A stretch of 32,000 bases of DNA from Candidatus Nitrospira inopinata (GCF_001458695.1 NZ_LN885086.1:480001-512000), one strand, 5' to 3'. Numbered from the stretch's first letter, positions 6,348 to 19,385 are shown. The notes: generated from the letters alone by a model not told the origin. Translations and numbers: made by a program.

Positions 6348-6367
6348 TATCGTCGTGTTCCCGCTCG

Positions 6368-6396: not shown

Positions 6397-6448
6397 TTGA
6401 GCCCGGGCAAACTCATGCGACCCAACGTCGCGCATCGCCGATCACGAT

Positions 6449-6778
6449 ATGAGCACCGTTCTTGACGTCAGCGACGAGAACTACAAGGAGTTTACCGACA
6501 GCTCCGGCGCCGTCGTGGCCTATGGTCTGGCCACCTGCGAGCCTTGCCAAGCCTATGATCCCATCTTGGAAGGCATCGCAGCCAAGTTTCCTTCCATCAA
6601 GGTCGGCAAGGCCAAGATGCACGTCCCGGGTCGTTGTCGCGAGATCAAGCGGACCCACTCGTTCGAGACCTACCCCACCACCCACTTTTTTGCCGGCGGG
6701 AAGCTGCTCCTGACCCGCGAAGGCATCGTCGAGCCGGCTGAATTGGCCGAACTTATTACGGCCCTCTTGTTAAAGTAA
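6449..6778 (+). CDS. Thioredoxin-like protein (CxxC = CEPC)
   Basis: 109 aa. The layout VVAYGLATCEPCQAYDPILEGIA...V....-...YPT..FF.GG is that of a thioredoxin fold. It lies downstream of the peroxiredoxin. Confidence 0.7.
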   Translation: MSTVLDVSDENYKEFTDSSGAVVAYGLATCEPCQAYDPILEGIAAKFPSIKVGKAKMHVPGRCREIKRTHSFETYPTTHFFAGGKLLLTREGIVEPAELAELITALLLK

Positions 6779-6802
6779 TTCCATAATTCTCTCACGAAGA
6801 CT

Positions 6803-6833
6803 TTGACAATTTGCCCACCATACCGGATAAGAT
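6803..6833 (+). promoter_or_regulatory. Possible sigma70 promoter upstream of the secreted-protein pair
   Basis: TTGACA at 6803-6808. Candidate -10 boxes are GATAAG (17-nt spacer) or TAAGAT (19-nt spacer). AGGAGG precedes ATG 6915. Confidence 0.3.
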
Positions 6834-6914
6834 GTTCTGACGAGAGGCGCCCCAGGCCGGAGAAATGCCTCGCGTCTTTGACTCATCGATGATCGGCGTG
6901 AAGGAGGCCCTTGC

Positions 6915-7403
6915 ATGAAAAGAACGATGACCGGCCTGGTCGCGGCGATGGCGCTGGCCGTAACGGTGCCGGGTTGGGCGCACACGGACGAATATTTTGA
7001 ATTTGTCGATGCTCCGCATGGCGGGCAGTTGCGCATGACGGGGCCGTTTCACCTGGAGCTGGTCGCCAAAGAAGGCAACCTCACCGTGTACGTCACGGAC
7101 CACGCCGACAACAGAATCAGCGTGGAAGGCGGCCTCGCCAAGGCGACCATTGAGACGGGAGGGACCAGAACGCAGGTGCACCTCCATCCCATCGGCAACA
7201 ACGTCCTCAAAGGGTCCGGATCATTCGTCCTCACGCCGGAGACGGTCGTCATCGTGTTCCTGAAATTGCCGAATCAAGACGGCTATGCCGCCCGTTTCAT
7301 GCCGTTGAAACCGAAGACCGCCTTCACCGGACAGCAACCCAAAGGGGGAGCTTCATCGTCGGACGAGGAGCATCACCACCATCATCATCCACCGAAACGC
7401 TGA
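6915..7403 (+). CDS. Secreted protein of unknown function with C-terminal His6 (paralogue 1)
   Basis: 162 aa with a signal peptide MKRTMTGLVAAMALAVTVPGWA. The core is HGGQ..GPFHLELVAKEGNLTVYVTDHADN and the tail is ...DEEHHHHHHPPKR. The RBS is GAAGGAGG. Confidence 0.7.
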   Translation: MKRTMTGLVAAMALAVTVPGWAHTDEYFEFVDAPHGGQLRMTGPFHLELVAKEGNLTVYVTDHADNRISVEGGLAKATIETGGTRTQVHLHPIGNNVLKGSGSFVLTPETVVIVFLKLPNQDGYAARFMPLKPKTAFTGQQPKGGASSSDEEHHHHHHPPKR

Positions 7404-7428
7404 CGGTCCCTGTGACGGAGCATCGACC

Positions 7429-7899
7429 ATGAAAAAACATTTGCCGGGACTTCTCGTCCTCCTTGCCGCGGCGGTATTCTCAACGCCGGCGGACGCGCAC
7501 AAGCAAGAGAAGAGAAAGCACGTCGAACCCGTGAAGGCCTATCACGGCGGGCAGGCGCAGGAAGCGGGGCCCTATCACCTGGAGCTGGTCGCCAAGGACG
7601 GAGAACTGACGCTGTACGTCGCGGACCATGATGACAAGGCCGTGTCCACGGCAGGCGGCAAGGCCAAGGCCACGATTCAGCGTGGATACGAGAAAACTTC
7701 GCGAGTCGAAGTGGATCTGCAACCGGCCGGAGACAACCTGTTAAAAGGAACGGGGACCTTTACGATCAATCACGATACCAAGATCATGATCTTCATCAAA
7801 CTGCCCGACCACGAAGCCCACGCCGCGTCGTTCGCCCCGTCCGGCGCCCAGGCTGGAGACATGCGTCCAAACAACGCGGCCTCCTCGCACAAACACTGA
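7429..7899 (+). CDS. Secreted protein of unknown function (paralogue 2 of 6915-7403)
   Basis: 156 aa with a signal peptide. It shares the blocks YHGGQ, GPYHLELVAKDGELTLYVADHDDK, GGKAKATI, GDNLLKGTGTF and IFIKLPD with the upstream gene. Confidence 0.7.
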   Translation: MKKHLPGLLVLLAAAVFSTPADAHKQEKRKHVEPVKAYHGGQAQEAGPYHLELVAKDGELTLYVADHDDKAVSTAGGKAKATIQRGYEKTSRVEVDLQPAGDNLLKGTGTFTINHDTKIMIFIKLPDHEAHAASFAPSGAQAGDMRPNNAASSHKH

Positions 7900-7901
7900 T
7901 C

Positions 7902-7925
7902 GGCAACCGGCGCCGCTCGGTTGCC
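7902..7925. terminator. Hairpin between convergent genes at the left edge of the island
   Basis: GGCAACCG (7902-7909) pairs with CGGTTGCC (7918-7925) around an 8-nt loop. It lies between the stop of 7429-7899 (+) and the stop of res (-). There is no clear U-tract on either strand. Confidence 0.3.
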
Positions 7926-7938
7926 AACCAGACATCTT

Positions 7939-10917
7939 TTACACCTCGTCAGCCGTCACGGCGACGGCAAGCGGTATGCCCAGTGCCGCAAAGTGTTTTT
8001 GGCCACAACGGACTTTGTCGGCTTCGATCGTGCGGAGCTTCAAGAAATCCCTCGTCCCTTTGGTTTCCTTGACCAGATAGACCGTTTCGTCCTCGCGTTT
8101 CACAATCGCCCAGTCCGGGTTGTACTCCCCCACCGGGGTGTCTACCTTGAACCAAGAGGGAAGCTTCACGAAGAGTTCGATATCCTCGCGCTGGTCGAGT
8201 TTCCGAGCAAACTCGCGCTCGACCTCCGAGTCGTACACCACATACTCATAAACGGATTTCTTCACCCGAAGAGCATTGAGGTAATTGACCAGTTCCTCGC
8301 TTTTGAAGAGTACCATCTCCCACTCGGCCTCCGGACCGGTGCCAGGCAGCCGTTCGTACTTGATGCCGTCCACAAGGAGTCGATGAAGTTCATGTTTGAG
8401 AATTCCAGCCACGGCGTCCATGAACCGCTGAGGATTGTTGAAGACCTCTCCAAGTCGGCCGGAGGCTTTGAGGATGCGGACGAGCGTGGAGCGGGTCAGC
8501 TCGGTCTCGTTCTGCAGGTAGGCGAGGATGTCTGGCAGCGCGCGCACGCCGTAGACAGGCTGCTCCTCGGCGACGCTCACGGCCGTCGTGATCACCCCGC
8601 CCTTTGCCACCTGGACTTGGCCTGCGGCGACGTGGATCTTCGGCGCTTCGATCTTCTCCATGCGCTTGATGGCCTCCACCGCGCGCCTTACCAGTTCATC
8701 CGTCTCGAATTCGACTCGATAGGTGGTCTTCGGCTTGATACGATTCCAGAGCGACTCAAATTCCTGGCTGAGTACGACCTCCTTCTTGAGCCGGTTCGGA
8801 CCGTCATCCCGCTCTCGGCGGATGTGCCGCTCGATCTGATACGCAGACAAGAGATCAATGACGGTCGGCGTCAGGTCACGGTGCGCCTCGGGCAAATCCA
8901 GCGTGAAGTCCTTCCGTTTGGGGTCAAATGCGGGCTGAATGCGACCGTCAGCATCGAGCATCTTCTGTTCGACCAACGCCGCGCGGACGGCCTCCGCCGC
9001 ATCCCGTCCGATCGGTCGCTCCACGCCGTCCACGACTCGAGTCAGCTTCACGAACGCCGTGAAGGGAACCTTGCCGAAGGTCACACCGCAGTCTTCCTCA
9101 TACTCGGTCTGCAGCGCGCGGGCGAAGTCCTCGTAGCTCTCGTTGGCCATCACGTAGAGCTTGTTGACCGACTCGTCGAAGACACGCCGACCGGTCTGAT
9201 CCACCGGCAGACGAAGACCGCGGCCGATCTCCTGACGCTTCTTCACCACACTCCGGGTCTCATTGAGCGTGCAGATTTGGAAGACGTTCGGGTTGTCCCA
9301 GCCCTCTCGCAGGGCGGAGTGGCTGAAGATGAACCGGAGCGGCTCGTCCAGTGAGAGCAACCGCTCCTTGTCCTTCATAATCAGGTTGTACACTTCGTCG
9401 TCGGCCTGGGTATCGCCTCGCGTATCCTTGAGCACTCCCTTTTTGTCCTGGGCAAAATAGCCGTTGTGCAGGCGGTCAACCGGTTCCTTCAGCCATTCCA
9501 ACTCTTGGTAGCGTTCATCCTTGGCGAACTCTGACAGCGCCGCCTCGAACGCCACGGCGAACTTGCCCTTCACCGGCTTGCCTTCTTCATCATAGTGACG
9601 GTAGTTGGCCACACGGTCGATGAAGAACAACGACAAGACCTTGAGACCGCGCCCACGCACCTGAAGTTCCTTCTCTAGATGCTTCTTGACCGTGTGTTTG
9701 ATTTGTGCCCGCCAGACATCCTCGCGCAGGCCGCCGATCTGCCCGCCAAGCCGCAGCGTGCGGCCGTTCGAGAAGCGCAGGTACTCGTTGCCCGATTCGG
9801 CGTTGATCTCGGTCACCTCAAAGCCGTCACGGTAGGTCGCACGCTCATTGGAGACCGTGAAGAGATCGGCCCCCTGCTTGACCGTGACGGCCTTCTCCTT
9901 TGGTCCTTCGGGTGTCTGGACGTGGATACGGAGCTTCGCCTTGATCCCCTTCTTATAGTCGATCTGTTCGACGCGCACGAAGGCGTCATTCGCCGCGCCC
10001 TCGACTGCCGCGCTTGCGACCACGATCTGCTTGACCAGCTTCAGCTCGAAGGCGCGAACCGGATCGAGGCGGTAGACGAGATTGTAGGGATTGCGGTGCG
10101 TGGCGGAATATCGCAAGGTGCAGAGCGGGTTGAGCGCCTTGATCGCCTCCTGCGCTTTGTCGGTCGAGTCCACGCTCTGCGGCTCGTCGATGATGACGAT
10201 GGGCCGCGCTGCCTGCACGAACTCGATCGGCTGGCGGCCGGAGAGCTTGTCGCTCTCCTTGTAGATGACGTTGCTCTTCTGCTCTTCTTCCGTGCCGGTG
10301 AAGTTCTTGCGGAAGGCGTCGATATTGATGACGAGAATCTGCAGGGTGTTGCTGGTCGCGAACTGACGCAGCCGGTTGACCTTCTTCGCGTCATAGACGA
10401 AGTGCTCAAAGGGCAGATGGTTGTAGAGCGCGCGGAAGTGCTCGGCGGTGATCTCGATGCTCTTGAGCACACCCTCGCGGATGGCCACGCTCGGCACCAC
10501 GATGATGAACTTCTGAAAACCGTAGCGCCGCGACAACTCGAAGATGGTACGCAGGTAGACATAGGTCTTCCCCGTGCCGGTCTCCATCTCGACCGAGAAG
10601 TGCGGGCAGCGTCGTGACTGGTTGGCCGGGCCGTCGAACAGCTCCCATGCCTCGGGCGCGGCGGCGGGATCGGCCACTTCGATGTCGTTGCGTGTCTGGA
10701 TGGCACGCAGGTTCCGGAGCAGCTTGTCCTCCGCTAGGAGCAGGCGATTGCCCGCGCCCAGCTCCGTGCGTTCTTGCCCGGCGAAGAGGCCACCCATCGC
10801 GCCAAGGTTGATGACGGCATATTCCGGCGCCCCCCGTGGTTGGCCGTCGAAGAGGTCGGTGACGGCCGCGACCGCGTCGAGTTGGAATGGCTGGTTCGCG
10901 TCGAATTGGAGTTTCAC
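7939..10917 (-). CDS. res: Type III restriction enzyme Res subunit (SF2 helicase plus C-terminal PD-(D/E)xK nuclease)
   Basis: The N-terminus V/MKLQFDANQPFQLDAVAAVTDLFDGQP is typical of Res. Walker A is EMETGTGKTYVY and motif II is VIIDEPQS. The C-terminal nuclease signature is EYNPDWAIV...VYLVKETKG. I place the start at GTG 10917, which overlaps the DUF2442 stop as GTGA. The 1080-aa track ORF extends too far upstream. Confidence 0.9.
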   Translation of the reverse strand: MKLQFDANQPFQLDAVAAVTDLFDGQPRGAPEYAVINLGAMGGLFAGQERTELGAGNRLLLAEDKLLRNLRAIQTRNDIEVADPAAAPEAWELFDGPANQSRRCPHFSVEMETGTGKTYVYLRTIFELSRRYGFQKFIIVVPSVAIREGVLKSIEITAEHFRALYNHLPFEHFVYDAKKVNRLRQFATSNTLQILVINIDAFRKNFTGTEEEQKSNVIYKESDKLSGRQPIEFVQAARPIVIIDEPQSVDSTDKAQEAIKALNPLCTLRYSATHRNPYNLVYRLDPVRAFELKLVKQIVVASAAVEGAANDAFVRVEQIDYKKGIKAKLRIHVQTPEGPKEKAVTVKQGADLFTVSNERATYRDGFEVTEINAESGNEYLRFSNGRTLRLGGQIGGLREDVWRAQIKHTVKKHLEKELQVRGRGLKVLSLFFIDRVANYRHYDEEGKPVKGKFAVAFEAALSEFAKDERYQELEWLKEPVDRLHNGYFAQDKKGVLKDTRGDTQADDEVYNLIMKDKERLLSLDEPLRFIFSHSALREGWDNPNVFQICTLNETRSVVKKRQEIGRGLRLPVDQTGRRVFDESVNKLYVMANESYEDFARALQTEYEEDCGVTFGKVPFTAFVKLTRVVDGVERPIGRDAAEAVRAALVEQKMLDADGRIQPAFDPKRKDFTLDLPEAHRDLTPTVIDLLSAYQIERHIRRERDDGPNRLKKEVVLSQEFESLWNRIKPKTTYRVEFETDELVRRAVEAIKRMEKIEAPKIHVAAGQVQVAKGGVITTAVSVAEEQPVYGVRALPDILAYLQNETELTRSTLVRILKASGRLGEVFNNPQRFMDAVAGILKHELHRLLVDGIKYERLPGTGPEAEWEMVLFKSEELVNYLNALRVKKSVYEYVVYDSEVEREFARKLDQREDIELFVKLPSWFKVDTPVGEYNPDWAIVKREDETVYLVKETKGTRDFLKLRTIEADKVRCGQKHFAALGIPLAVAVTADEV

Positions 10918-11252
10918 GGTTCGACCGTCCAGTGTCCCTGCATTCGAATGTTGTCGTACATCGCATCCGGCGCGAGGTCGGCGCCATTGGGCCAGGTGAC
11001 CGTCCCAAGCTCGATGCGGGCCTGCGCAAAGAAGGCCGGGTCCCGAAGCGCCTCGAAGACAGTCCCCGTGACACGCGACGCGCTCAGAAACGGTTCGAGT
11101 CGTACTTCGCCGGCAGTCCCGTCGGTAAACTCGACGTCCAACCGCATGCCTGGTTTGACCGTGACGCGCACAATGCGCCAAGGCGCTGCCGACCCCGGGG
11201 GTGGAACTACTCCAGAGGTGGAATCGGTTTTGGTGGGTTGAGTTGGCGACAT
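10914..11252 (-). CDS. DUF2442 family small protein
   Basis: ...RIVRVTVKPGMRLDVEFTDGTAGEVRLEPFL...GTVFEALRDPAFFAQARIELGTVTWPNGADLAPDAMY matches the DUF2442 pattern (F.DG....vdl....G.vFe.LrDp..F..v.....g.i.WPNGaD..Pd.LY). The start is uncertain (ATG 11252 or an internal GTG). The stop overlaps the res start. Confidence 0.8.
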   Translation of the reverse strand: MSPTQPTKTDSTSGVVPPPGSAAPWRIVRVTVKPGMRLDVEFTDGTAGEVRLEPFLSASRVTGTVFEALRDPAFFAQARIELGTVTWPNGADLAPDAMYDNIRMQGHWTVEP

Positions 11253-11466
11253 AGCTCCCAGTCCTCCATCAATGCTTCCCGGTGTTCAGCAGCCCATTCT
11301 AGCACCAGCGCGAGCGCCCGGCGGGGAAGCGCGCCTCGGGTCACCCGCAGCTCACGGATGTCAATAATCGCCTCGTGCTCCGCATAGACGGCGTGAAAGT
11401 GTGGCGGCCGTGCTCGGCTCAGAACATCTGGATCACAATCCCGAAAAACGTGCTGATCGTGGGCAT
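11207..11466 (-). pseudogene. DUF4160 family gene disrupted by an in-frame TGA and a 1-nt frameshift
   Basis: The minus strand reads ATG..MPTISTFFGIVIQMF-TGA-AEHGR, and in another frame (R)PPHFHAVYAEHEAIIDIRELRVTRGALPRRALALVLEWAAEHREALMEDWELCRQLNPPKPIPPLE-TAG. The span is 260 nt, not a multiple of 3. Adding one C in GGCCGCC would restore EHGPPHFHA, the family hallmark. Confidence 0.65.
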
Positions 11467-11470
11467 CAGG

Positions 11471-11520
11471 TCACACCGTCTTAAAACTCGTCACGCCTTT
11501 GGTTTTGAAGATCTGCACGG
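11471..11520. repeat. Direct repeat copy A (50 bp, identical to 13452-13501)
   Basis: TCACACCGTCTTAAAACTCGTCACGCCTTTGGTTTTGAAGATCTGCACGG occurs at both positions on the same strand. Confidence 0.95.
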
Positions 11521-11569
11521 TATTGGCTTGTGAATGGCCGATGAAACTCGGTCCGAGCCCCACGAGCGG
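11471..11569 (-). pseudogene. Relic 3' end of a second mod allele
   Basis: It reads ..TPPLVGLGPSFIGHSQANTVQIFKTKGVTSFKTV*, against the intact Mod tail ..RVVCLDAGFAGNDQLKANAVQIFKTKGVTSFKTV*. The last 50 nt are identical and the upstream part is diverged. There is no start codon or N-terminal body. Its stop lies 4 nt before the DUF4160 ATG. Confidence 0.7.
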
Positions 11570-11732
11570 AGGGGTTGTGAAAGATACCCCGCTGCTCAAA
11601 TTGCTCGTAGAGCGATGGATCATGACGAAACGCCAAGAAATCGAGATACTCCGACGCGACATCGAGCCCTCCCCCAAGCAAAGGGCCACTGGACGGCTGT
11701 TGTCATACAAGCTGGATAGCCCTCTGGCTTTC

Positions 11733-12476
11733 TCATGCGAGTACAGGCAGTGCTTTCCTTGTCGCAGACAGACGTGGCATCTCACTCCATACCTTATTTT
11801 CCAATAGCCGCCCCGCCCGTTTCTTGTTCGGGCCGCCCCATTGCTTGAAAAAGAACGGCACGTCGGCGCGACGACACTGGTCCCGGATGTCCAGGACCCA
11901 GGCCGGATCCATGGGCCGGGCATGAGGGCCGGACTCGCCTCCGACAATGACCCAGTCAATGCCGGTCAGATCGAGGTCTGTCAGGGGGCCGAGCAACGGC
12001 TCCAGCGAGAGAAATTTAATTGCCGCTCCGGTCCGCCTCAGATGCTCGATCCGGTATCGGTATTCATCGCTCTCGATACTGACGCCCATCCAGATATTGG
12101 GCGTCCATTCAAGCGAGGGACTCACTTCTCCAAGTCTCTCGGCGCGCTTGGTGAGCACCTGGAAGCGATGCCAGTGCGCGCGGCCCATCACGTCGAACAC
12201 GGTCTTGATGTATTCGAGTGGGACCTGTTCGTGGAAGAGATCACTCATGGAATTCACGAAGATCGTTTGCGGCTTTTTCCACTTCAGTGGAAGCTCAAGC
12301 ATGTGAGGCTGGAGCGTCAGTTGGAACCCATTCACATAATTTGGTTGCCCCATGGCCTGTAATCGCTCAGCCATCCGCTCGGCATAGCAGTGCTTGCATC
12401 CAGGACTGATCTTCGTGCACCCTGTGACTGGATTCCATGTGGACTCGGTCCATTCGATGCCAGATCCCTGTGCCAT
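11733..12476 (-). CDS. DUF5131 / phage Gp37-Gp68 family three-Cys-motif protein
   Basis: 247 aa. [33 protein letters not shown] carries a C-x6-C-x2-C motif. Family-typical blocks are [41 protein letters not shown] and FFFKQWGG. Its ATG overlaps the tcmP stop as TGATG. Confidence 0.9.
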
Positions 12477-13381
12477 CAGCGCACCTCCTTGAGTAAATGC
12501 TGTGCGATCTTCAAGGCTATCTTCTTCCCGGGTTCATTACCGACGGCAAAGCAAAGAAGGTAGAGCGGATTGTTTGCCGAGTTACGCAACACGCCCGGCT
12601 CTTCTGCAACACCGGCAAAGATCCCTTTGAGTCGGTTGTTGAAATAACGTCCTATGGTTTCCATTGTAGCCTTGACCACACGCTCATTGTCGTCCCCGAA
12701 AAGTGTTGGCATAGTCTCGACCCTATAGAAATCATCGTACCAATCTCTAGTGCCAAGAAGCAGATCGAGGCGGCGACGCCACGATTTTGGAATATCACCC
12801 GACTTGGTCAGCAGACGATTAACTCCGATCCCGAGCGGGAAGAGCAACCACAGATCGATAGCCTTCGTCTTGGCTATGGCTTCGATCATCCTCCACTCGA
12901 CCTGCATGCCATAGGGGTCAAGAAACAGCACTGCGCGTTTGAATCGCCAATCTGTTGCGCATAGTTCCTGGATCTTGGCGTTCGCATCTCCTTGGCGGAT
13001 GTCGATCTTGTCGGCAAGTCCTGGAAACTCAGCCTTCAGGCTTTCAAGATCGGCACAGCGTTCAGGACTACGTTCGATAAAAATGTATCGATCGAATTGC
13101 GGCTCAATCTTGAGTGCCAGACGAGCAGAGCCATCCAGAAACGACTGCGGTTCAGGCTCTGCCATGTCGGGGAAAAGGGTGTTCTGTGGCGAGTCCTCCT
13201 CTTCTTCACGCCGAGCCTCTCGGTAGCCTGTGCCGGCAAACGCATCGATGTACAGCTTCTGAAAAGACGTCTTCTTTAACGCGGTCGTGTAGCTCTTCAA
13301 GTACTTGGCCAGCACCTCCAGCTTTCGGGTGGTCCATTCCCCGCCAAACTGATGCTCCCTGTCTCTTCGATCATCAGGCAT
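12476..13381 (-). CDS. tcmP: Three-Cys-motif partner protein TcmP (Rossmann/SAM-methyltransferase-like motifs)
   Basis: 301 aa. The N-terminus is [24 protein letters not shown] and the protein lies next to a DUF5131 gene, which defines the TcmP family context. Motifs [10 protein letters not shown] (motif I-like) and VLFLDPYG (motif IV-like) are visible. Confidence 0.85.
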
Positions 13382-13420
13382 GGCCTAAGTCGGCCTCATT
13401 CAGAACACTGACCACTTCAA

Positions 13421-13441
13421 ACTGAAAACTGAATACTGAAA
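13421..13441. repeat. Tandem heptamer ACTGAAA / ACTGAAT / ACTGAAA in the AT-rich mod-tcmP junction
   Basis: Read directly at 13421-13427, 13428-13434 and 13435-13441, inside the 70-nt spacer between the mod stop (13452) and the tcmP ATG (13381). Confidence 0.8.
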
Positions 13442-13451
13442 ACCAAATCCT

Positions 13452-13501
13452 TCACACCGTCTTAAAACTCGTCACGCCTTTGGTTTTGAAGATCTGCACG
13501 G
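13452..13501. repeat. Direct repeat copy B (50 bp, identical to 11471-11520); this is the 3' end of intact mod
   Basis: Identical 50-mer. It encodes the last 16 codons plus the stop of Mod. Confidence 0.95.
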
Positions 13502-15353
13502 CGTTGGCCTTGAGCTGGTCGTTGCCGGCAAAGCCTGCGTCCAGGCACACGACCCGCTCCGGTTTCTTGTCGGCCATGGCCCGGATCAGGTCCAACGTCA
13601 GATCCCGTTCCAGGCAGATGAAGAGAGCTCCTCCCGCTACGCTGTACACGGTTTTCCCCCTCTCCTCCTGGGAGAGGGCCGTGGTGAGGGGAAGCGTCAG
13701 CTTCTGGACCGGCGTGGTGAGCGGGAAGCCGCTTTTGAGCAGGATTTCATAGAGAAGGTCCAGCTCGGCGCGGCCCTCGCGGATGTGGTCCACGTGGAGG
13801 TCGAGTTGCCGGGCCAGGGTCTCTGCATCTTTGGGCGCTTCGGCCTCCCAGGGAGTGAAGTTGGATTCGGCGAGCTTGAAGACTTTGAATCCACGGTCCT
13901 GCGGCTTGGCGCCTTCCAAATCGAGCTTTCCAGCATCTTCATCGTTGAGACTCTTGATGACGCGCCGCACGCGCTCCTTGCAGATGTCGGCGATGGTGGG
14001 GTAGTCCTGCCGCCCTGTAGGCTCTGGAAGCTGAACCAGAATGAACTTGCGATTGCCGCCGTCCTGTTTATTCAGATCGAGGACTGCGTGGGCGGTGGTG
14101 CCGGAGCCAGCCATATAGTCCAAGATGATATCCTCGGAATTCGACCCATCGTTAACTGAAATTGAAAGAAGAAACTGAATCAGTGCGGACGGCTTCGGAA
14201 AATCAAACACATCCTTTCCGAGAAGACCATCCACTTCTTTCGAGCCTTCCTGGTTATATGGGCCGATTAGTAGCGAAAGTGGCTTGGTTTTGCGCATCTG
14301 ACCACGTTCGTCTCGGAGATATTGCTTCACCCGGACGTTTAACTTGCCGTCGGTTTCATTCACGACGATCTCGTCGTTTGCCAGTGCTGCATCGACGCGT
14401 TCCTTTGACCATAACCACTGCTTGTCAGGCCATATCTCTTGCCCTTTCCAAGTGATTGGGAATCGGAGATTTGGTCTCGGATCCTTGCTCCCGGTAGCCA
14501 AGGGTTGTGTGACATAGCCCCCTCGAACCGGGAACTTCACATCTTTGCCCTTGTACTCAGCAATTGCTTCCTCAGAAAGAGGCGCGAGAATATTTTCGAC
14601 AGGCATTTTCGAGTAACAGACAATGTACTCATGAACATTCGAGAATCCCTTGGTAAGGGCTCCCGAGTTGTACTTGTTCTTCCAGACAAGTTGCTCAACA
14701 AAATTCTCCTCGCCAAATATCTCATTTGCCAACTTCTTGAGATTATCGACCTCCGTGTCATCAATGCTGATAAAAACCAATCCGTCCTCCCGCAACAGAT
14801 TCCTCGCCAGATACAGCCGTGGGTACATCATGTTGAGCCATTTTGAGTGAAAGCGGCCGTCCGTCTCGGTATTGGTGGAAAACTTCTTGCCTTGCGCATC
14901 CACCTGCCCGGTGTATTCCAGATAGGTCTGCAAACTTTCGGTGTAGTTGTCGGGATAGATGAAGTCGTTGCCGGTGTTGTAGGGCGGGTCAATGTAAATC
15001 ATCTTGACCTTGCCCAGGTAGGACTTCTGCAACAGCTTCAGCACCTCCAGATTGTCGCCCTCGATGATGAGGTTCTCGGTCGTGTCGAAGTTCACGCTCT
15101 CTTCCAGACAGGGCCGTAGGGTGCCAAGGCTCGGCATCTGGATGGTTTTGAAACACTCGGCCTTCCCCGGCCAGGTCATGCCGTAGCGTTCCTTGCCGAC
15201 ATCCACGGATTCGCCCAGCGCGAGCTTCAACCTGTCGAAATCAATCTTCCCGCCTTCCGTGCGGATTTCCGGAAACAGGCGCAGCAATTCTTGTCGCTTG
15301 TCCTCGGCAATGTCGTGGGAGCGTAAATCGAGCTTGTCGGGCTGGTCGGTCAT
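13452..15353 (-). CDS. mod: Type III-like Mod DNA methyltransferase (beta-class N6/N4 amino-MTase)
   Basis: Motif IV is IYIDPPYNTGNDF near the N-terminus and motif I is LDYMAGSGTTAHAV near the C-terminus, with a long variable region between them. This is the Mod/beta-class order. The start is taken at ATG 15353 (MTDQPDKLDL), preceded by AAGGAAG. The track ORF begins 17 codons earlier. Confidence 0.9.
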   Translation of the reverse strand: MTDQPDKLDLRSHDIAEDKRQELLRLFPEIRTEGGKIDFDRLKLALGESVDVGKERYGMTWPGKAECFKTIQMPSLGTLRPCLEESVNFDTTENLIIEGDNLEVLKLLQKSYLGKVKMIYIDPPYNTGNDFIYPDNYTESLQTYLEYTGQVDAQGKKFSTNTETDGRFHSKWLNMMYPRLYLARNLLREDGLVFISIDDTEVDNLKKLANEIFGEENFVEQLVWKNKYNSGALTKGFSNVHEYIVCYSKMPVENILAPLSEEAIAEYKGKDVKFPVRGGYVTQPLATGSKDPRPNLRFPITWKGQEIWPDKQWLWSKERVDAALANDEIVVNETDGKLNVRVKQYLRDERGQMRKTKPLSLLIGPYNQEGSKEVDGLLGKDVFDFPKPSALIQFLLSISVNDGSNSEDIILDYMAGSGTTAHAVLDLNKQDGGNRKFILVQLPEPTGRQDYPTIADICKERVRRVIKSLNDEDAGKLDLEGAKPQDRGFKVFKLAESNFTPWEAEAPKDAETLARQLDLHVDHIREGRAELDLLYEILLKSGFPLTTPVQKLTLPLTTALSQEERGKTVYSVAGGALFICLERDLTLDLIRAMADKKPERVVCLDAGFAGNDQLKANAVQIFKTKGVTSFKTV

Positions 15354-15555
15354 GGTCTTCTTCCTTCGAGTGTTCCATTCATCATGGCCAGGGGCCAACG
15401 TCATCCAACGGGATCGTCAGGCTACAGTGTCATAACTGCATGGTCGGCCGATTGCAAGGTGAGGGGGCAGCCAATTGAAACCCAGGAGGCCGGCCCATCG
15501 ACCTCGATGAAGGGAGGAGCGAAACGCCGGATGTATCCGTTCAGAAATCGACTCG

Positions 15556-15592
15556 GGAGCGCTCGGATGGCTCCGGCTTCCGAGTGCGCTCC
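15556..15592 (-). terminator. Imperfect hairpin immediately after the SNF2 stop
   Basis: GGAGCGCTCGG (15556-15566) pairs with CCGAGTGCGCTCC (15580-15592) with a 1-nt bulge and a 13-nt loop. On the minus strand it is followed by ..GATTTCTGA, a weak U-tract. Confidence 0.3.
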
Positions 15593-15594
15593 AT

Positions 15595-18474
15595 TCACCC
15601 CAGCGTCCATCGCAACGTAAAGAGCGGCTCTTGTTCCAGCTTCTGCTCCAGCCGCCGGCTGATCTCATCCAGCAAGGCATCTTTTTGCCGGTTGATCTCA
15701 CGCGACGCTTCATCAAAGACTTTCCAGGCCTCGATCCGCTTGGATTCCAATTGGCGCAAGGCTCTCTGCCGTTCCAGCTTCTCCGGAAGGTTCGGCGCGA
15801 GACGGGCAGCCTTTTTCGTCTCCTTAATCGTTTCATCAAGCTCATCGAGTTCCGCCTTGAGAGATATCCGCCGATCCTCGGCCCAGCGATCGAGCTTGTC
15901 CATTTCCAGATCGAACCAGCGGCCGTTGCGGGTGGTGAAGTCCTCGAGGAGCTGACGCTCGCGGGATGCGTGGGCCTCGGCCAGCGTTGCGGCGACGGCC
16001 TCGGGTATGACGCATGACCGCTCCACCGTGGCCGGCAGGTCGAACAGGCGGCGGCACTGAACGTCGTCCAGCGGCTCACCGGCGTCGGTTGCGCCTGCAA
16101 AGAAGAGATGGTCCTCGGTCTCCATCGCGCTCACCGTGAGCCTCACGCAGGCAAGCCAGCCGCTGGTGCCGACGAGGGACTCAAGGATCGCGATCTTCTT
16201 GCCACTGTCGCGGTAGTGAAAGGTGACCTCCGCCGGTGGCGTCTCCAGGCCACGGCCGAGGGCGAGCACACGCTGCGCCAGTGGGTGCCCCACGCGATAG
16301 GTATTGGCATCCTCGGTGCGCCTGCCCATGCGGTACGGGCCGGGGTGAATGGCTTCGCCGGCGAAGGGATTGCTGTGGAGCATGAAACTGAAGTCCGAGT
16401 CCTCGAAGCGCGCGTGGTCGCGCAGCAGGTAGCGGGTGAGTCGCCAGAGGCGCTCGTTGAAGCGGTCGAGCACATCCTGGCTTTGGATACGGACCTTCTC
16501 GACCACTTCCTGATCGAAGTTGTCGAGGAGCTTCTCGCGCGCGTCGCGCTGACCTTCTGCAATCTGTGACTCCAGCTCGCGCTGGAGCCGGTCGAACTCG
16601 AACTGGATCTGCTCCGGCGTGCGGCACTTGTGATAGATCCCTGCGATGCGCTTCTCGAAATCGACGCCCGACTCGATCGCGCCGAGCACCTCGTCGCTGG
16701 CACCGAAGACTCCGTTGAACAGGCGGAACTTCTGGTCCAGCAGCTCGTAGACGCGCTGGTCGGCGGCGTTGGTCTTGTTGAGGAAGTTCACCACCACGAC
16801 GTCGAACTTCTGGCCGTAGCGGTGGCAGCGGCCGATCCGCTGCTCGATGCGCTGGGGGTTCCAGGGCAAGTCATAATTCACCACCAAGTTGCAGAACTGG
16901 AGGTTGATGCCCTCGGCGGCGGCTTCGGTGGCGATCAAAATGGCTGCCTCATCGCGGAAGTGCTCGACGAGGGCCGCGCGCATGTCCGCGCTCGGTGACC
17001 CGCTGACCCGGTCCGTTCCCGCGTGCTTCGCCAACCAGCGCTGGTAGATGGCCTTGGAGGTCTGATCGTTGTTCGTGCCGTTGAAGAGCATGACGCGGCC
17101 GCGAAACTCAGTTTGCTCCAGGAGCCGGAAGAGATATTCCTGCGTGCGGCGCGACTCGGTGAAGACCACGGCCTTCTGCTGGAGCGCTGGGCTGCCCTGC
17201 GCGGCCTGGGCTTCGGCGGCGGCGGCAAAGCCACGTCGCAGGGCCGTCAGCAACACCTCGCCCTTCGAGTTCTTGATGATGGACTTGGCAAGGTCGTGAA
17301 ACTCGCGCAGCTCGGCCAGCTCGCGCTTGAGGTCGGCGAGCTGGTCCGGCGTGAGACGTGCCTTTTCGGTGGTCGTTGCACCGTCCTCCTCCCACTCGTC
17401 AATCAGTTCGTCGAGCTGTTCCCAGTCCTCCGGCAGATTCTCAGGTGGGGCTTCCACGGCTTCGGCGCCCGCCGCGGCGGCCTGGAGCCGCTGCACCATG
17501 CCGTCGAGGGTGCCGGAGATGGCGTAGGTCGAGGAGGCGAGGAGCTTCCGCAGGATCAGCGTGATAAGCTGCCGCTGGCTCACCGGCAGGGCGTAGAGGG
17601 TCTCCCGCTGAAGGTAGTTGGAGACAAGATCGTACAGCCGCTGCTCATCCGGAGTGGGCACGAATTCCTGCACGAGCGCGTGGCGGTTCGTGTACTTGAC
17701 GTACTCGAGCGCCTGCCGACGGAGCGTGCGCTTGCAGAGAGGCGCAAGACGTTCCTTGAGTTCAGCGAAATCGGTGTCGTCGCCGAGACGCGAGAAGCGG
17801 CTGCGGTAACTCTGGAGGTCGCCGAAGGCGAAGTCGTCGATGATGCTGACGAGACCGTAGAGCTCGAGGAGGGAATTCTGGAGGGGCGTGGCGGTAAGCA
17901 GCACTTTCGGGAAGGGTGCAACCGCTTGTTTGATCGCCAGCGCGATCTTGCTCGAGCCCTTATAGACATTGCGCAGGCGATGAGCCTCGTCGATGACCAC
18001 GAGATCCCAGGCGGTTTGGCGAAGGTATGGTTCTTTGGAGCGCGCAAACTGGTAGGAACAGAGGACGACGGCATCCTGTTGGAACGGGTTCAGGTGACCG
18101 GCGCGAATGGCTTCGTTGAAACTGCGGGTCTCGAGGATCACCGAGGGGAGATAAAACTTGTCCTCAAGCTCCTGGCTCCACTGCTTGCGCAGGTTGGCGG
18201 GAAGGATGACCAGGAGGCGCCGCTTCCGCTCGGCCCACTTCTGGGCAATCAGTAATCCGGCCTCAATCGTTTTACCGAGGCCCACTTCGTCGGCAAGGAT
18301 GGCCCCCTTCGAGAAGGGACTGCGGAAGGCGAACAGTGCCGCCTCGACCTGGTGAGGATTGAGGTCAACCTGCGCATCGGCGAGCACGGAGGCAAACTTC
18401 TCCATACTATCGGAGGCGCAACGCCTGGTCAGTTCGTGAGCCAGGTATTTCGCGTGGTAGGGGGTCAGGCTCAT
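15595..18474 (-). CDS. SNF2-family helicase/translocase with a long C-terminal extension
   Basis: 959 aa. Motif I is LADEVGLGKT, motif II is VVIDEAHRLRN, motif III is LTATPLQNS and motif VI is QRIGRCHRYGQ. About 360 C-terminal residues have no recognisable motif and end in a charged, heptad-like segment. Confidence 0.9.
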   Translation of the reverse strand: MSLTPYHAKYLAHELTRRCASDSMEKFASVLADAQVDLNPHQVEAALFAFRSPFSKGAILADEVGLGKTIEAGLLIAQKWAERKRRLLVILPANLRKQWSQELEDKFYLPSVILETRSFNEAIRAGHLNPFQQDAVVLCSYQFARSKEPYLRQTAWDLVVIDEAHRLRNVYKGSSKIALAIKQAVAPFPKVLLTATPLQNSLLELYGLVSIIDDFAFGDLQSYRSRFSRLGDDTDFAELKERLAPLCKRTLRRQALEYVKYTNRHALVQEFVPTPDEQRLYDLVSNYLQRETLYALPVSQRQLITLILRKLLASSTYAISGTLDGMVQRLQAAAAGAEAVEAPPENLPEDWEQLDELIDEWEEDGATTTEKARLTPDQLADLKRELAELREFHDLAKSIIKNSKGEVLLTALRRGFAAAAEAQAAQGSPALQQKAVVFTESRRTQEYLFRLLEQTEFRGRVMLFNGTNNDQTSKAIYQRWLAKHAGTDRVSGSPSADMRAALVEHFRDEAAILIATEAAAEGINLQFCNLVVNYDLPWNPQRIEQRIGRCHRYGQKFDVVVVNFLNKTNAADQRVYELLDQKFRLFNGVFGASDEVLGAIESGVDFEKRIAGIYHKCRTPEQIQFEFDRLQRELESQIAEGQRDAREKLLDNFDQEVVEKVRIQSQDVLDRFNERLWRLTRYLLRDHARFEDSDFSFMLHSNPFAGEAIHPGPYRMGRRTEDANTYRVGHPLAQRVLALGRGLETPPAEVTFHYRDSGKKIAILESLVGTSGWLACVRLTVSAMETEDHLFFAGATDAGEPLDDVQCRRLFDLPATVERSCVIPEAVAATLAEAHASRERQLLEDFTTRNGRWFDLEMDKLDRWAEDRRISLKAELDELDETIKETKKAARLAPNLPEKLERQRALRQLESKRIEAWKVFDEASREINRQKDALLDEISRRLEQKLEQEPLFTLRWTLG

Positions 18475-18632: not shown

Positions 18633-19385
18633 TCACCCGGCGTATTCGAAGGAAAGGTCGCGGGTTTGGTCAAGACGGATAGCGGCCAGAGTTCCACTCG
18701 TAAGACGGCCGGCCAGCCGGTCCCACATCGTTTTGACCAAGGTCGAGCCGCTGACCGAGGACACCCCCAAGACCTGTCGGAGATCCCGCTTCTCGAACGG
18801 CTGCACGATCTGCTCGCGCACGAGTCGATCCAGGTCGCTGATATTGGTGACCATGCCGGTGACCGGATCGATCGGCCCGTGCACGGTCACGTGCAGATCC
18901 CAGGCGTAGCCCTCGCCGTTCTCCCTGAGGGCCGTGAAGGTGTAGCGCCTGGTGACCCACGCCCGATCAAGCCCGCCCGCCGCCGTGACATCGGCAGAGA
19001 GGTCTTCGTCTTCGTAGAGACGGACGGCATGAAGGGTCCCGATGTCCGGTTGGGGCGCCAGTTTCGTCCAGAGCAATCGGGCGAAGTTTTCCGAGGTGGG
19101 AATCCGATCCTTGAAATAGGGCATGTCCAGGTTGAGATTCTTGTGGTCGAATTCTTCCAGCACATCGAGGAGCACACGCTTCAAGTCGAACAGATTGACG
19201 ACCATGCCGGTGACCGGATCGATCTCGCCCCGCACCGTCACTTCGAGCAGATAGTTGTGTCCATGAGCTGGCGGGTTGTAGCAGGCCCCGAACACGGCCC
19301 GGTTCGTGGCCTCGTCCCACTCCGGTTTGACATAGCGGTGCGAGGCGGCGAACTCAATGCGTTTGGTGAGGAGAACGGATGACAT
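18633..19385 (-). CDS. Fused tandem 6-pyruvoyl-tetrahydropterin synthase / QueD-like protein
   Basis: 250 aa. The first half carries the PTPS/QueD signature (FAASHRY...GACYNPPAHGHNYLLEVTVRGEIDPVTGMVVNL.DLK). The second half repeats the fold (WDLHVTVHGPIDPVTGMVTNISDLD) but lacks the Cys/HGH residues. Confidence 0.75.
   Translation of the reverse strand: MSSVLLTKRIEFAASHRYVKPEWDEATNRAVFGACYNPPAHGHNYLLEVTVRGEIDPVTGMVVNLFDLKRVLLDVLEEFDHKNLNLDMPYFKDRIPTSENFARLLWTKLAPQPDIGTLHAVRLYEDEDLSADVTAAGGLDRAWVTRRYTFTALRENGEGYAWDLHVTVHGPIDPVTGMVTNISDLDRLVREQIVQPFEKRDLRQVLGVSSVSGSTLVKTMWDRLAGRLTSGTLAAIRLDQTRDLSFEYAG

What the first reader, a model, noticed from the sequence alone, without database searches (positions are those of the whole stretch)
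7939..18474. Expanded type III-like restriction-modification island: SNF2 helicase + Mod + TcmP/DUF5131 pair + DUF4160/DUF2442 + Res
Seen: seven co-directional minus-strand genes with very tight junctions. The tcmP stop and DUF5131 start overlap as TGATG. The relic mod stop lies 4 nt before the DUF4160 ATG. The DUF2442 stop and res start overlap as GTGA. Mod (DPPY...FxGxG) and Res (Walker A, DEPQ, C-terminal PD..ExK) both look intact. Housekeeping genes flank both sides, and there is no integrase, tRNA or IS. Established: canonical type III systems are just mod-res. SNF2 translocases recur in defence systems. DUF5131 (phage Gp37/Gp68) and TcmP are an obligate gene pair with no assigned function. 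Inference: mod and res are separated by a second putative nucleic-acid-modifying pair and preceded by an SNF2 motor. The locus may therefore be a composite system, for example two self-marking activities feeding one nuclease, or SNF2-assisted target search. As far as I know this combination is not a named defence system, but I cannot search to confirm that.
Basis: partly seen in the sequence, partly recalled or inferred. Interest (0 to 1): 0.85.

Follow-up and report, generated by a model that had tools for sequence, protein, structure and literature searches.

The report
Helicase-extended restriction system carrying guest genes
This is a type III restriction-modification system with a conserved extra SNF2 helicase, and the genes wedged between its methylase and nuclease are interchangeable guest cassettes rather than parts of one seven-gene machine.

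Summary
DUF4160 is a pseudogene. The "relic" is a 57-nt copy of the mod 3' end preceded by a DUF2442 tail fragment. Two junctions are not tight (190 and 70 nt).

Comparison with about 200 related loci splits the island into two layers.

1. A conserved core, SNF2-Mod-Res. A DrmD-like SNF2 helicase lies directly upstream of this Mod/Res clade in many phyla, and SNF2 and Res identities to the window proteins rise and fall together (r = 0.94, 50 loci). A 2024 preprint has already named this architecture "SMRD".

2. Exchangeable cargo in two slots, SNF2>Mod and Mod>Res. In 46 scorable loci the Mod>Res slot is empty in 21. It holds TcmP/DUF5131 in 7, a Schlafen-like ATPase in 8, RhuM in 4 and other genes in 6.

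TcmP/DUF5131 is PADLOC candidate PDC-M41. Cassettes at least 70% identical also occur alone, next to DISARM genes, and beside other type III systems. In a syntenic Nitrospira genome the cassette is intact although SNF2 and Mod are deleted.

DUF4160/DUF2442 is a decayed DhiTA toxin-antitoxin pair.

The combination does recur (more than 10 loci). A preferential link to type III systems (6 of 11 unbiased contexts) remains unexplained.

The parts
15595..18474 (-). SNF2-family (DrmD-like) helicase, 959 aa. Conserved first gene of the SNF2-Mod-Res core. C-terminal 360 aa are a coiled coil plus a beta domain of unknown fold.
   Evidence: PF00176 and PF00271. PADLOC DrmD PDLC02619 at 1.7e-204, covering model positions 24-647 of 872. 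NCBIfam DISARM_DrmD_b scores 686 bits, below the 950 cut-off. Motifs I, II, III and VI are intact. Full-length homologues lie upstream of Mod-Res in many loci. C-terminal domain model has pLDDT 85 and no PDB match.
13452..15404 (-). Type III Mod, an N6/N4 DNA methyltransferase of 650 aa. G+C is lower (0.544) than the core genes.
   Evidence: PF01555. PADLOC MTase_III PDLC03634 at 3.8e-193 over the full length. DPPY at aa 139. The C-terminal 20 aa are near-invariant across loci although the body is 55-65% identical. G+C.
12476..13381 (-). TcmP, 301 aa. Predicted class I SAM-dependent methyltransferase-like protein. First gene of the PDC-M41 cargo cassette.
   Evidence: TIGR04474 at 2.2e-62. PADLOC PDC-M41A at 1.9e-133. 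AF2 model pLDDT 76, pTM 0.78; Foldseek top hits are Trm1, RlmJ/DUF519 and COMT. Motifs DAFAGTG (aa 46-52) and DPYG (aa 155-158).
11733..12476 (-). DUF5131 (phage Gp37/Gp68 family), 247 aa. Radical-SAM-superfamily protein with the Cys motif C20-x6-C27-x2-C30. Second gene of the cassette; its start overlaps the tcmP stop by 1 nt.
   Evidence: PF07505 at 1.1e-102. PADLOC PDC-M41B at 6.2e-124 and PDC-M30B. Cys motif. Listed as radical SAM Megacluster-5-2 in PMC9477430.
11528..11681 (-). Scar: the C-terminal fragment of a DUF2442 (antitoxin-type) gene left by an earlier cargo layer.
   Evidence: tblastn gives 43% identity to the C-terminus of the intact DUF2442 gene of L020. No family hit on its own.
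11471..11527 (-). Scar: a 57-nt copy of the mod 3' end including its stop codon. It is a direct repeat of 13452-13508 and together they bracket the TcmP-DUF5131 cassette.
   Evidence: the repeat finder family D1, 96% identity, spacing 1981. The last 15 codons are identical. The same kind of relic lies between stacked cargos in L020 and L208.
11207..11466 (-). DUF4160 (DhiT-type toxin) pseudogene, with an in-frame TGA after codon 15 and a frameshift.
   Evidence: Sequence and three-frame translation compared with the intact L020 gene. The C-terminal part hits PF13711 at 3e-07 and NCBIfam toxin_DhiT.
10914..11252 (-). DUF2442 (DhiA-type antitoxin) gene, intact. The true start may be an internal GTG near 11173. 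Its stop overlaps the res GTG as GTGA.
   Evidence: PF10387 at 3.8e-13, residues 27-102. Sequence.
7939..10917 (-). Type III Res, 992 aa: an SF2 ATPase with a C-terminal PD-(D/E)xK endonuclease.
   Evidence: PADLOC REase_III PDLC03647, 1013 bits over the full length. PF04851 and PF19778. NCBIfam PRK15483 at 2.2e-107. Motifs.
7896..7931 (-). Terminator-like hairpin with a 14-bp stem, just after the res stop. It is the only strong terminator-like site in or next to the island.
   Evidence: The total number of sites in the region is no more than chance, and none of comparable strength lies between the island genes.

Best explanation
The locus is a three-gene, helicase-extended type III restriction-modification system (SNF2-Mod-Res) that carries guest cassettes inside its operon.

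Core, inferred from family knowledge: Mod methylates an asymmetric site on host DNA. Mod-Res complexes use the Res SF2 ATPase to communicate along DNA and cut DNA whose sites are unmethylated. The DrmD-like SNF2 protein is an accessory double-strand DNA translocase. Its exact role is unknown. By analogy with DrmD, BrxH and RapA it may clear or remodel protein-DNA complexes, or help Mod/Res reach their sites.

Cargo, shown by comparison: the gap between mod and res is a slot into which unrelated, self-contained defence-type modules are exchanged. Here it holds two layers.
- The newer layer is TcmP-DUF5131 (PADLOC candidate PDC-M41), a predicted SAM-methyltransferase-like protein plus a radical-SAM-like protein. 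It probably modifies nucleic acid and acts on its own.
- The older layer is a DhiT/DhiA (DUF4160/DUF2442) toxin-antitoxin pair whose toxin gene is dead.

History, inferred: a lower-G+C block (mod + tcmP + DUF5131, 11471-15404) replaced the resident mod by recombination. It left 57 nt of the old mod tail and a DUF2442 fragment as scars. The near-invariant mod tail and the conserved res 5' end are the likely homology arms for cassette exchange. With no comparable terminator-like hairpin found inside the island, the guests may be co-transcribed with the restriction genes; transcription was not tested.
For: Family assignments.

Core triad:
- Full-length SNF2 homologues (52-77% identity) lie directly upstream of Mod-Res in about 20 genome loci from many phyla.
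- In SNF2-anchored metagenome loci with enough downstream DNA, almost all have Mod and then Res.
- Some junctions overlap, for example in L013, L036 and L053.
- SNF2 and Res identities to the window correlate at r = 0.94 over 50 loci.
- The same architecture occurs on a Rhizobium plasmid.

Slot behaviour:
- The Mod>Res gap ranges from 0 to 5 kb. It holds PDC-S05/RhuM, a Schlafen-AlbA_2 ATPase, HEC-01B, PDC-S02/DUF1016, TIR plus a GmrSD-like gene, PDC-M68B or a PLD gene.
- The SNF2>Mod gap holds OLD/AriA, HNH, SoFic, ApeA-HEPN, AbiEii or an M78 peptidase.
- Census of 46 loci: 21 empty, 7 TcmP/DUF5131-type, 8 Schlafen, 4 RhuM, 6 other.

Cassette autonomy:
- Cassettes 70-76% identical occur alone (L166, L172, L174, L175) or upstream of DrmABC (L173).
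- More distant pairs lie in other defence islands on plasmids and in viral contigs.
- In the syntenic Nitrospira locus L001, SNF2 aa 186-959 and Mod aa 1 to about 470 are lost, but TcmP (99%) and DUF5131 (95%) are intact.

Scars and import:
- The 57-nt repeat.
- A mod-tail relic between stacked cargos in L020 and L208.
- A Res N-terminal remnant carried with the cassette in L163.
- G+C of 0.53-0.57 for mod-tcmP-DUF5131 against 0.60-0.63 for SNF2, res and the flanks.

Operon end: the only strong terminator-like hairpin follows res.

TcmP fold.

Precedent for embedding: Payne et al., bioRxiv 10.1101/2024.01.29.577857.
Against: - TcmP/DUF5131-type pairs fill this slot repeatedly: at least 10 loci, in two SNF2 clades, and with a divergent TcmP paralogue in L081.
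- Of 11 contexts sampled without reference to restriction genes, 6 lie next to a type III system. These involve three different Res families and three relative positions. That is more than generic defence-island clustering would obviously give, so some functional synergy is not excluded.
- No activity of any of these proteins has been measured.
- The role of SNF2 rests on analogy only. Its C-terminal domain has no recognisable fold.
- The cassette-exchange route is inferred from scars, not observed.
- The ORF calls in related loci are crude: longest ORF, greedy selection.
Confidence: 0.7

Rival explanations
1. Integrated composite system. TcmP-DUF5131 works together with the type III machinery. 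It might write a second self-mark that Res or SNF2 reads, or modify DNA or RNA so as to back up Mod.
For: The same gene order recurs in at least 10 loci with tight junctions of about 18 and 50 nt. Six of 11 unbiased TcmP contexts are beside a type III system. TcmP has a methyltransferase fold with amino-methyltransferase-like motifs. In viral contigs TcmP often lies near an N6/N4 methylase gene.
Against: Twenty-one of 46 sister loci have an empty slot and 18 carry unrelated cargo. Near-identical cassettes stand alone or beside DISARM. The cassette's position relative to Mod and Res varies: between them, upstream or downstream. L001 keeps the cassette after losing SNF2 and Mod. The pair is also embedded in BREX, DISARM or type I loci according to the origin of the PADLOC PDC models.
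Confidence: 0.17
2. Chance pile-up. All modules, SNF2 included, are independent neighbours in a defence island with no functional unit larger than mod-res.
For: Defence genes cluster in general. SNF2 is absent from about a third of Res relatives that have ample upstream DNA, for example L006, L010, L012, L018 and L021. L171 has Mod-TcmP-DUF5131-Res without SNF2.
Against: SNF2 identity tracks Res identity (r = 0.94). Adjacency, shared strand and often overlapping stop/start codons are kept across many phyla and on plasmids. A more distant Res clade has its own upstream SNF2-type helicase (HKD-SNF2 plus DUF4391), which suggests a recurrent need for such a partner.
Confidence: 0.06
3. Decaying, non-functional island. 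The pseudogene and scars show that the locus is eroding and no longer restricts.
For: The DUF4160 pseudogene and two relics. Sister loci L001 and L206 are clearly degraded.
Against: SNF2, Mod, TcmP, DUF5131, DUF2442 and Res are all full length, cover their profiles end to end and keep their catalytic motifs.
Confidence: 0.07

Closest known systems
Canonical type III restriction-modification (EcoP15I/EcoP1I type, mod-res)
   Same: Mod is a PF01555 N6/N4 methylase with DPPY. Res has SF2 ATPase motifs and a C-terminal PD-(D/E)xK nuclease. Both match PADLOC type III models over their full length, and the order is mod before res on one strand.
   Different: A conserved SNF2 helicase gene precedes mod. 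Here mod and res are separated by 2.5 kb of guest genes.
'SMRD' defensive gene cluster (SNF2-related protein, DNA methyltransferase, RhuM, DEAD helicase, plus an embedded known system), bioRxiv 10.1101/2024.12.27.630466
   Same: The same gene order and the same generic product names as the core found here. Relatives L003, L006, L024, L031, L036, L070 and L121 carry RhuM in the Mod>Res slot. The preprint also notes other defence systems inside the cluster.
   Different: The window has no RhuM; TcmP-DUF5131 and DhiTA remnants sit in that place. My census shows RhuM is one of several alternative occupants, not a fixed member. The passages I retrieved from the preprint report CRISPR-linked promoter regulation; I saw no mechanism or type III assignment there, and I did not read the whole paper. 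Sequence identity between the Neisseria clusters and this family was not checked.
Class 1 DISARM (DrmD-DrmMI-DrmA-DrmB-DrmC)
   Same: An SNF2 helicase whose best match is DrmD, placed immediately upstream of an adenine methylase that marks self DNA.
   Different: No DrmA, DrmB or DrmC. The methylase is PF01555 type III Mod, not PF13659. The SNF2 protein scores below the NCBIfam DrmD cut-off and lacks the DrmD C-terminal region. The effector is a type III Res.
Defence systems embedded in other defence systems ('guilt by embedding', Payne et al., bioRxiv 10.1101/2024.01.29.577857) and PADLOC candidate PDC-M41
   Same: Co-directional guest genes nested inside a multi-gene restriction-type system. 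TcmP and DUF5131 match PDC-M41A and PDC-M41B at 1e-133 and 1e-124.
   Different: That study used Hma, BREX, DISARM and type I systems as hosts, not type III. Here the host is a type III/SNF2 system with two defined slots and visible recombination scars.
DhiTA type II toxin-antitoxin (DUF4160/DUF2442), Dickeya dadantii 3937 (PMC8198452)
   Same: The same domain pair in the same order, toxin then antitoxin.
   Different: The toxin gene is inactivated here. The antitoxin gene survives and overlaps the res start.

Membership tests
Type III restriction-modification | Mod: beta-class N6/N4 DNA methyltransferase with a DPPY catalytic motif and a SAM-binding motif I | tested here: met
   PF01555 at 1.5e-32. 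PADLOC MTase_III over the full length at 3.8e-193. DPPY at aa 139, YMAGSGTT near aa 428.
Type III restriction-modification | Res: SF2 ATPase motifs plus a C-terminal PD-(D/E)xK endonuclease | tested here: met
   PF04851 and PF19778. PADLOC REase_III, 1013 bits. TGTGKT, DEPQ, SAT and PD..ETK present.
Type III restriction-modification | ATP-dependent cleavage that needs two inversely oriented unmethylated sites, and hemi-methylation by Mod | not testable with these tools
SMRD cluster (preprint 10.1101/2024.12.27.630466) | SNF2-related protein, DNA methyltransferase and DEAD helicase in one co-directional cluster | tested here: met
   Relatives.
SMRD cluster (preprint 10.1101/2024.12.27.630466) | RhuM-family gene between the methyltransferase and the helicase | tested here: not met
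   No RhuM in the window. It is present in L003, L006, L024, L031, L036, L070, L121, L128, L130 and L150.
SMRD cluster (preprint 10.1101/2024.12.27.630466) | Promoter repression by a CRISPR-RNA-like RNA of a type I-C system | not tested
   No CRISPR array or cas genes were looked for beyond the ORF and Rfam scans. Rfam gave no hit in the window.
Class 1 DISARM | DrmD at or above the curated family score | tested here: not met
   NF038318 scores 686 bits against a cut-off of 950, and only model positions 21-639 of 868 align.
Class 1 DISARM | Core DrmA (helicase), DrmB (DUF1998/MZB) and DrmC (PLD) | tested here: not met
   None among the island genes or the flanking ORFs scanned with Pfam and PADLOC.
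PADLOC candidate PDC-M41 (TcmP + DUF5131) | Adjacent genes matching the PDC-M41A and PDC-M41B profiles | tested here: met
   1.9e-133 and 6.2e-124, with a 1-nt overlap.
PADLOC candidate PDC-M41 (TcmP + DUF5131) | Anti-phage activity | not testable with these tools
   The system is only a candidate in the source. I found no experimental report.
Radical SAM superfamily (for DUF5131) | Canonical CxxxCxxC cluster-binding motif | tested here: not met
   The motif is C20-x6-C27-x2-C30. The family is nevertheless listed as a radical SAM subgroup in PMC9477430. No structure was predicted.
DhiTA toxin-antitoxin | Intact DUF4160 toxin gene followed by a DUF2442 antitoxin gene | tested here: not met
   The toxin gene has a premature TGA and a frameshift. 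The antitoxin gene is intact.

The most novel reading that the evidence does not exclude
The TcmP-DUF5131 pair (methyltransferase-like plus radical-SAM-like) is a dedicated partner of type III restriction systems. It might write a second, chemically different nucleic-acid mark, or sense or repair DNA in a way that complements hemi-methylating Mod. The SNF2-Mod-Res locus would then be a platform that couples such modules to one nuclease. This would explain why 6 of 11 unbiased contexts of this cassette clade lie beside three different type III families.
Probability: 0.15. Interest if true: 0.8.

Novelty: new member of a known kind. Interest (0 to 1): 0.45.

Why it matters
- It extends 'defence systems nested in defence systems' to type III restriction-modification. 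There are two defined slots and visible recombination scars, which offers a simple way to mine new defence genes: read what sits between SNF2, mod and res.
- It shows that the SNF2-Mod-Res triad, noted only in passing as SMRD, occurs across many phyla and on a Rhizobium plasmid, with a more distant SNF2-methylase-helicase relative on Klebsiella plasmids. Its RhuM gene is optional cargo.
- It gives the uncharacterised PDC-M41 pair a concrete prediction: a Trm1/RlmJ-like SAM methyltransferase fold plus a radical-SAM-like partner.
- It provides cultured or plasmid-borne relatives for experiments.
- It does not reveal a new kind of system.

Tried and rejected
- HMMER against PDB sequences found nothing for TcmP or DUF5131.
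- Foldseek of the SNF2 C-terminal domain model (pLDDT 85) gave no match better than E = 0.067, so the domain remains unassigned.
- I first treated ORF 11481-11681 as the 'relic mod'. blastp against Mod found nothing. The mod-like signal is in another frame and is solid only for the last 57 nt. The ORF itself is a DUF2442 tail.
- I tested whether a mod-tail relic is a general signature of cargo insertion. It is not. It was found in only 1 of 55 loci with an occupied slot in the first screen, and later in L208, always between two stacked cargos.
- The promoter and terminator scan found no more sites than shuffled sequence gives. Only the hairpin after res stands out. Rfam and tRNA scans were empty.
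- Literature searches for DUF5131, TcmP, DUF4391, COG numbers and protein accessions gave no functional study of the pair or of the triad. The exception is the SMRD mention.
- DISARM membership was considered and rejected.
- The flanking ORFs 6915-7403 and 7429-7899 have no defence-related hits.


Full report
**1. What is in the sequence**

Between 7939 and 18474 the minus strand carries these ORFs:
- a 959-aa ORF, 15595-18474
- a 650-aa ORF, 13452-15404
- a 301-aa ORF, 12476-13381
- a 247-aa ORF, 11733-12476
- small ORFs between 10914 and 11733
- a long ORF ending at 7939, whose real start is the GTG at 10917 (992 aa)

Profile searches identify them as follows.

| Gene | Assignment |
|---|---|
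| 959 aa | SNF2-family helicase. Best PADLOC hit DrmD at 1.7e-204. NCBIfam DISARM_DrmD_b scores 686 bits, below its 950 cut-off, and only the N-terminal two thirds of the model align. |
| 650 aa | Type III Mod (PF01555; PADLOC MTase_III over the full length) |
| 301 aa | TcmP (TIGR04474; PADLOC PDC-M41A at 1.9e-133) |
| 247 aa | DUF5131 (PF07505; PDC-M41B at 6.2e-124) |
| small ORF | DUF4160 fragment |
| small ORF | DUF2442 |
| 992 aa | Type III Res (PADLOC REase_III, 1013 bits; PF04851 + PF19778) |

Catalytic motifs of SNF2, Mod and Res are intact.

The flanks are housekeeping genes. There is no tRNA and no Rfam hit, and no integrase or IS among the flanking ORFs scanned.

**2. Corrections to the observation**

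- DUF4160 is a pseudogene. It reads MPTISTFFGIVIQMF, then TGA, then continues in another frame. The intact L020 homologue reads MPEICRFLGIVIFMHFRDHNPPHFH....
- The solid part of the 'relic mod' is a 57-nt direct repeat of the mod 3' end: 11471-11527 versus 13452-13508, 96% identical, spacing 1981 nt, last 15 codons identical.
- The 150 nt before it (ORF 11481-11681) is the tail of a DUF2442 gene.
- The SNF2>Mod gap is 190 nt and the Mod>TcmP gap is 70 nt, so not all junctions are tight.
- G+C is 0.53-0.57 for mod, tcmP, DUF5131 and the relics. It is 0.60-0.63 for SNF2, res, the DUF4160/DUF2442 remnant and the flanks.

**3. The conserved core is SNF2-Mod-Res**

A scan of one genome per species with Res returned 80 loci. 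A full-length SNF2 homologue (52-77% identity) lies directly upstream of Mod-Res in about 20 of them. These come from Nitrospirota, Planctomycetota, Acidobacteriota, Bacteroidota, Verrucomicrobiota, Spirochaetota, and alpha-, beta- and deltaproteobacterial lineages. The compact forms have intergenic distances of -27 to +50 nt.

The reverse scan, anchored on SNF2 in metagenomes (80 loci, 73-84% identity), finds Mod and then Res downstream in almost every contig that is long enough.

Across 50 loci with both proteins complete, SNF2 and Res identities to the window proteins correlate at r = 0.94. They are inherited together.

About a third of Res relatives with ample upstream DNA lack SNF2, so it is a frequent but not universal partner.

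A more distant Res clade (42-47% identity) has a different upstream motor: an HKD-SNF2 protein of about 1075 aa followed by DUF4391.

On plasmids:
- Rhizobium sp. NLR16a p7 has HTH-SNF2-Mod-DUF262-Res.
- Klebsiella IncF-type plasmids (one inspected, L209) have a more distant HTH-SNF2-methylase-helicase set; Salmonella plasmids also carry SNF2 homologues.

PGAP names these proteins only 'SNF2-related protein', 'DNA methyltransferase' and 'DEAD/DEAH box helicase'.

A preprint (10.1101/2024.12.27.630466) describes an 'SMRD' cluster with exactly these names plus RhuM and an embedded known defence system. The passages I retrieved report only its regulation by a CRISPR-RNA-like RNA.

**4. Two cargo slots**

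In relatives the Mod>Res distance ranges from 0 to 5 kb and the SNF2>Mod distance from 0 to 3.9 kb. Almost all inserted ORFs are co-directional, and they are very diverse.

Mod>Res occupants:
- RhuM (PDC-S05)
- Schlafen/AlbA_2 + HATPase_c_4 proteins
- an ABC ATPase (HEC-01B)
- DUF1016/YhcG (PDC-S02)
- TIR plus a GmrSD-like gene (HEC-05)
- an ABC-3C component (PDC-M68B)
- a PLD protein

SNF2>Mod occupants:
- OLD/AriA-like ATPase-TOPRIM
- HNH
- SoFic
- ApeA-HEPN (PDC-S58)
- AbiEii
- an M78 peptidase
- a methyltransferase

In 46 SNF2-anchored loci where the Mod>Res slot can be scored:

| Slot content | Loci |
|---|---|
| Empty | 21 |
| TcmP/DUF5131-type pair | 7 |
| Schlafen-like ATPase | 8 |
| RhuM | 4 |
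| DUF1016 | 1 |
| Other | 5 |

This is the 'embedding' pattern that Payne et al. described for Hma, BREX, DISARM and type I systems. The PADLOC PDC models, including PDC-M41, came from that work.

**5. The TcmP-DUF5131 cassette**

The order SNF2-Mod-TcmP-DUF5131-Res recurs in L088, L093, L099, L112, L115, L122, L131, L133, L161 and L208. TcmP is 73-88% identical there, while Mod is only 55-65% identical.

L081 has a divergent TcmP paralogue with DUF5131 in the same slot.

In an SNF2 tree these loci fall in at least two groups, interleaved with loci carrying other cargo or none. Identities are also incongruent. L161 is closer to the window in SNF2 (83%) but farther in TcmP (73%) than L122 (77% and 86%).

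I sampled 11 contexts of close TcmP homologues (70-85% identity), chosen only for contig length:
- 6 are beside a type III system. In 4 the cassette lies between Mod and Res, in one of these decayed. In 1 it is upstream of a different Mod-Schlafen-Res. In 1 it is downstream of a third type of Mod-Res that also has DUF4160-DUF2442 upstream.
- 1 is directly upstream of DrmA-DrmB-DrmC.
- 4 have no restriction system nearby.

More distant pairs lie next to BREX, Abi genes or a Hachiman-like pair on plasmids, in either gene order. They also occur in 30 viral contigs.

The syntenic Nitrospira locus L001 has flanks 83-88% identical at the nucleotide level. It has lost SNF2 aa 186-959 and Mod aa 1 to about 470, yet keeps TcmP (99%), DUF5131 (95%) and Res (96%).

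Together these results show a self-contained, mobile two-gene module. The high share next to type III systems is still notable and unexplained.

**6. What the cassette may do**

TcmP has no Pfam or PDB sequence match. An AlphaFold model (pLDDT 76, pTM 0.78) has a class I SAM-methyltransferase fold. Its top solved matches are Trm1, the RlmJ/DUF519 family and COMT-type enzymes, with probability 1.0 but modest TM-scores of 0.44-0.46. Viral matches are also methyltransferases.

Two motifs are invariant among 40 homologues: DAFAGTG and LDPYG. From my own knowledge they resemble motif I and the DP(F/Y)G / (D/N)PP(Y/F) motif IV of enzymes that methylate exocyclic amino groups of nucleic acids.

DUF5131 carries C-x6-C-x2-C. 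It is filed in the radical SAM superfamily beside spore photoproduct lyase-type clusters.

The inference, which is not shown, is a nucleic-acid modifying pair.

**7. History of this locus**

L020 (Nitrospirales) has Mod-DUF4160-DUF2442-[mod tail relic]-Res. L208, the closest intact relative (SNF2 91%, Res 90%), has Mod-TcmP-DUF5131-[mod tail relic]-Schlafen-Res.

A relic therefore marks the boundary between stacked cargo layers. It is absent where there is a single layer.

The last 20 residues of Mod are nearly invariant across loci. The cassette in L163 carries a 38-aa Res N-terminal remnant into a foreign context.

The likely sequence of events is this. A lower-G+C donor block (mod + tcmP + DUF5131) recombined into a resident SNF2-Mod-[DhiTA]-Res locus. 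It replaced the resident mod except for its last 57 nt. The DhiT toxin gene then decayed.

**8. Mechanism, with status**

- Shown by homology: an intact type III Mod and Res, and an intact SNF2 ATPase.
- From established knowledge of type III enzymes: Mod hemi-methylates an asymmetric site. Mod-Res complexes, triggered by ATP, move along DNA and cleave between inversely oriented unmethylated sites.
- Inferred: SNF2 is an accessory translocase of the system, as DrmD is placed next to DrmMI in class 1 DISARM. The nearest solved relative is RapA. Its C-terminal coiled-coil and beta domain has no known fold.
- Inferred: the guests may ride on the operon's transcription. No comparable terminator-like hairpin lies inside the island and the only strong one follows res; transcription was not tested.

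**9. Verdict**

The island is not a novel seven-part machine. It is a helicase-extended type III system (SMRD-like) hosting a known candidate module (PDC-M41) and a dead toxin-antitoxin pair.

What is new is modest:
- type III systems as embedding hosts, with two defined slots
- evidence that RhuM in 'SMRD' is optional cargo
- a fold-level prediction for TcmP
- an unexplained preference of this cassette clade for type III neighbourhoods

Noticed in passing
L045, L046, L048, L050, L059, L064, L074, L076 (about 4000-10000 in each locus): A more distant Res clade (42-47% identity) has a four-gene architecture: an HKD/PLD-SNF2 helicase of about 1075 aa (PADLOC C3a139), DUF4391 (about 250 aa), Mod and Res. 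I found no description of it in the searchable literature.
   Followed up: partly
L001 5900-10000 (Nitrospira sp. MAG JANDJC010000009), syntenic with window 7939-18474: The sister genome has the same island at the same chromosomal site, but with SNF2 aa 186-959 and Mod aa 1 to about 470 deleted. The mod 3' end, tcmP, DUF5131 and the relic are 96% identical at the nucleotide level, although the flanks are only 83-88% identical. This suggests recent exchange of that block.
   Followed up: partly
L209 (Klebsiella pneumoniae plasmid NZ_CP023488, 8769-18521) and L210 (Rhizobium sp. NLR16a p7, 8808-18136): Conjugative plasmids carry HTH-SNF2-methylase-helicase sets. In Klebsiella the set lies in the leading region near ssb, psiB and parB. 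In total 50 plasmids, including 15 from Salmonella and 11 from Klebsiella, encode SNF2 homologues of 44-55% identity.
   Followed up: partly
L027, L032, L090, L141, L156, L157, L160, L210, just upstream of SNF2: A small Xis/MerR-like helix-turn-helix gene, often overlapping the SNF2 start, accompanies the triad in some loci. It may be a controller protein. It is absent from the window.
   Followed up: no
L182-L193 and L205 (viral contigs), about 8000-11300: Phage-borne TcmP homologues (about 39% identity) are followed about 1.1 kb downstream by an N6/N4 DNA methylase-like gene. The gene in between was not identified.
   Followed up: no
L207 2230-10316: DUF4160-DUF2442-Mod(829 aa)-Res(824 aa, YagJ domain)-TcmP-DUF5131-Macro domain protein. 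The same three module types as in the window are arranged differently around an unrelated type III-like pair. Seen on 7 contigs.
   Followed up: no
L163 10710-10823: A 38-aa remnant of the Res N-terminus (73% identity) follows the TcmP-DUF5131 cassette in a locus whose own Res belongs to a different family. This is evidence that the cassette moved together with flanking res sequence.
   Followed up: partly
window 18633-19385 (-): A two-domain PTPS/QueD-like gene lies immediately upstream of SNF2 on the same strand. It is syntenic in L001, so it is probably housekeeping. No link to 7-deazaguanine DNA modification was examined.
   Followed up: no
window 6915-7403 (+) and 7429-7899 (+): Two ORFs convergent on the res terminator have no hit in Pfam, PADLOC or NCBIfam.
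   Followed up: partly
Mod C-terminus, window 13452-13511 and all related loci: The last 20 residues of Mod (LKANAVQIFKTKGVTSFKTV) are almost invariant, even where the rest of Mod is 55-65% identical. This could be a Res-contact element, a recombination anchor, or both.
   Followed up: partly
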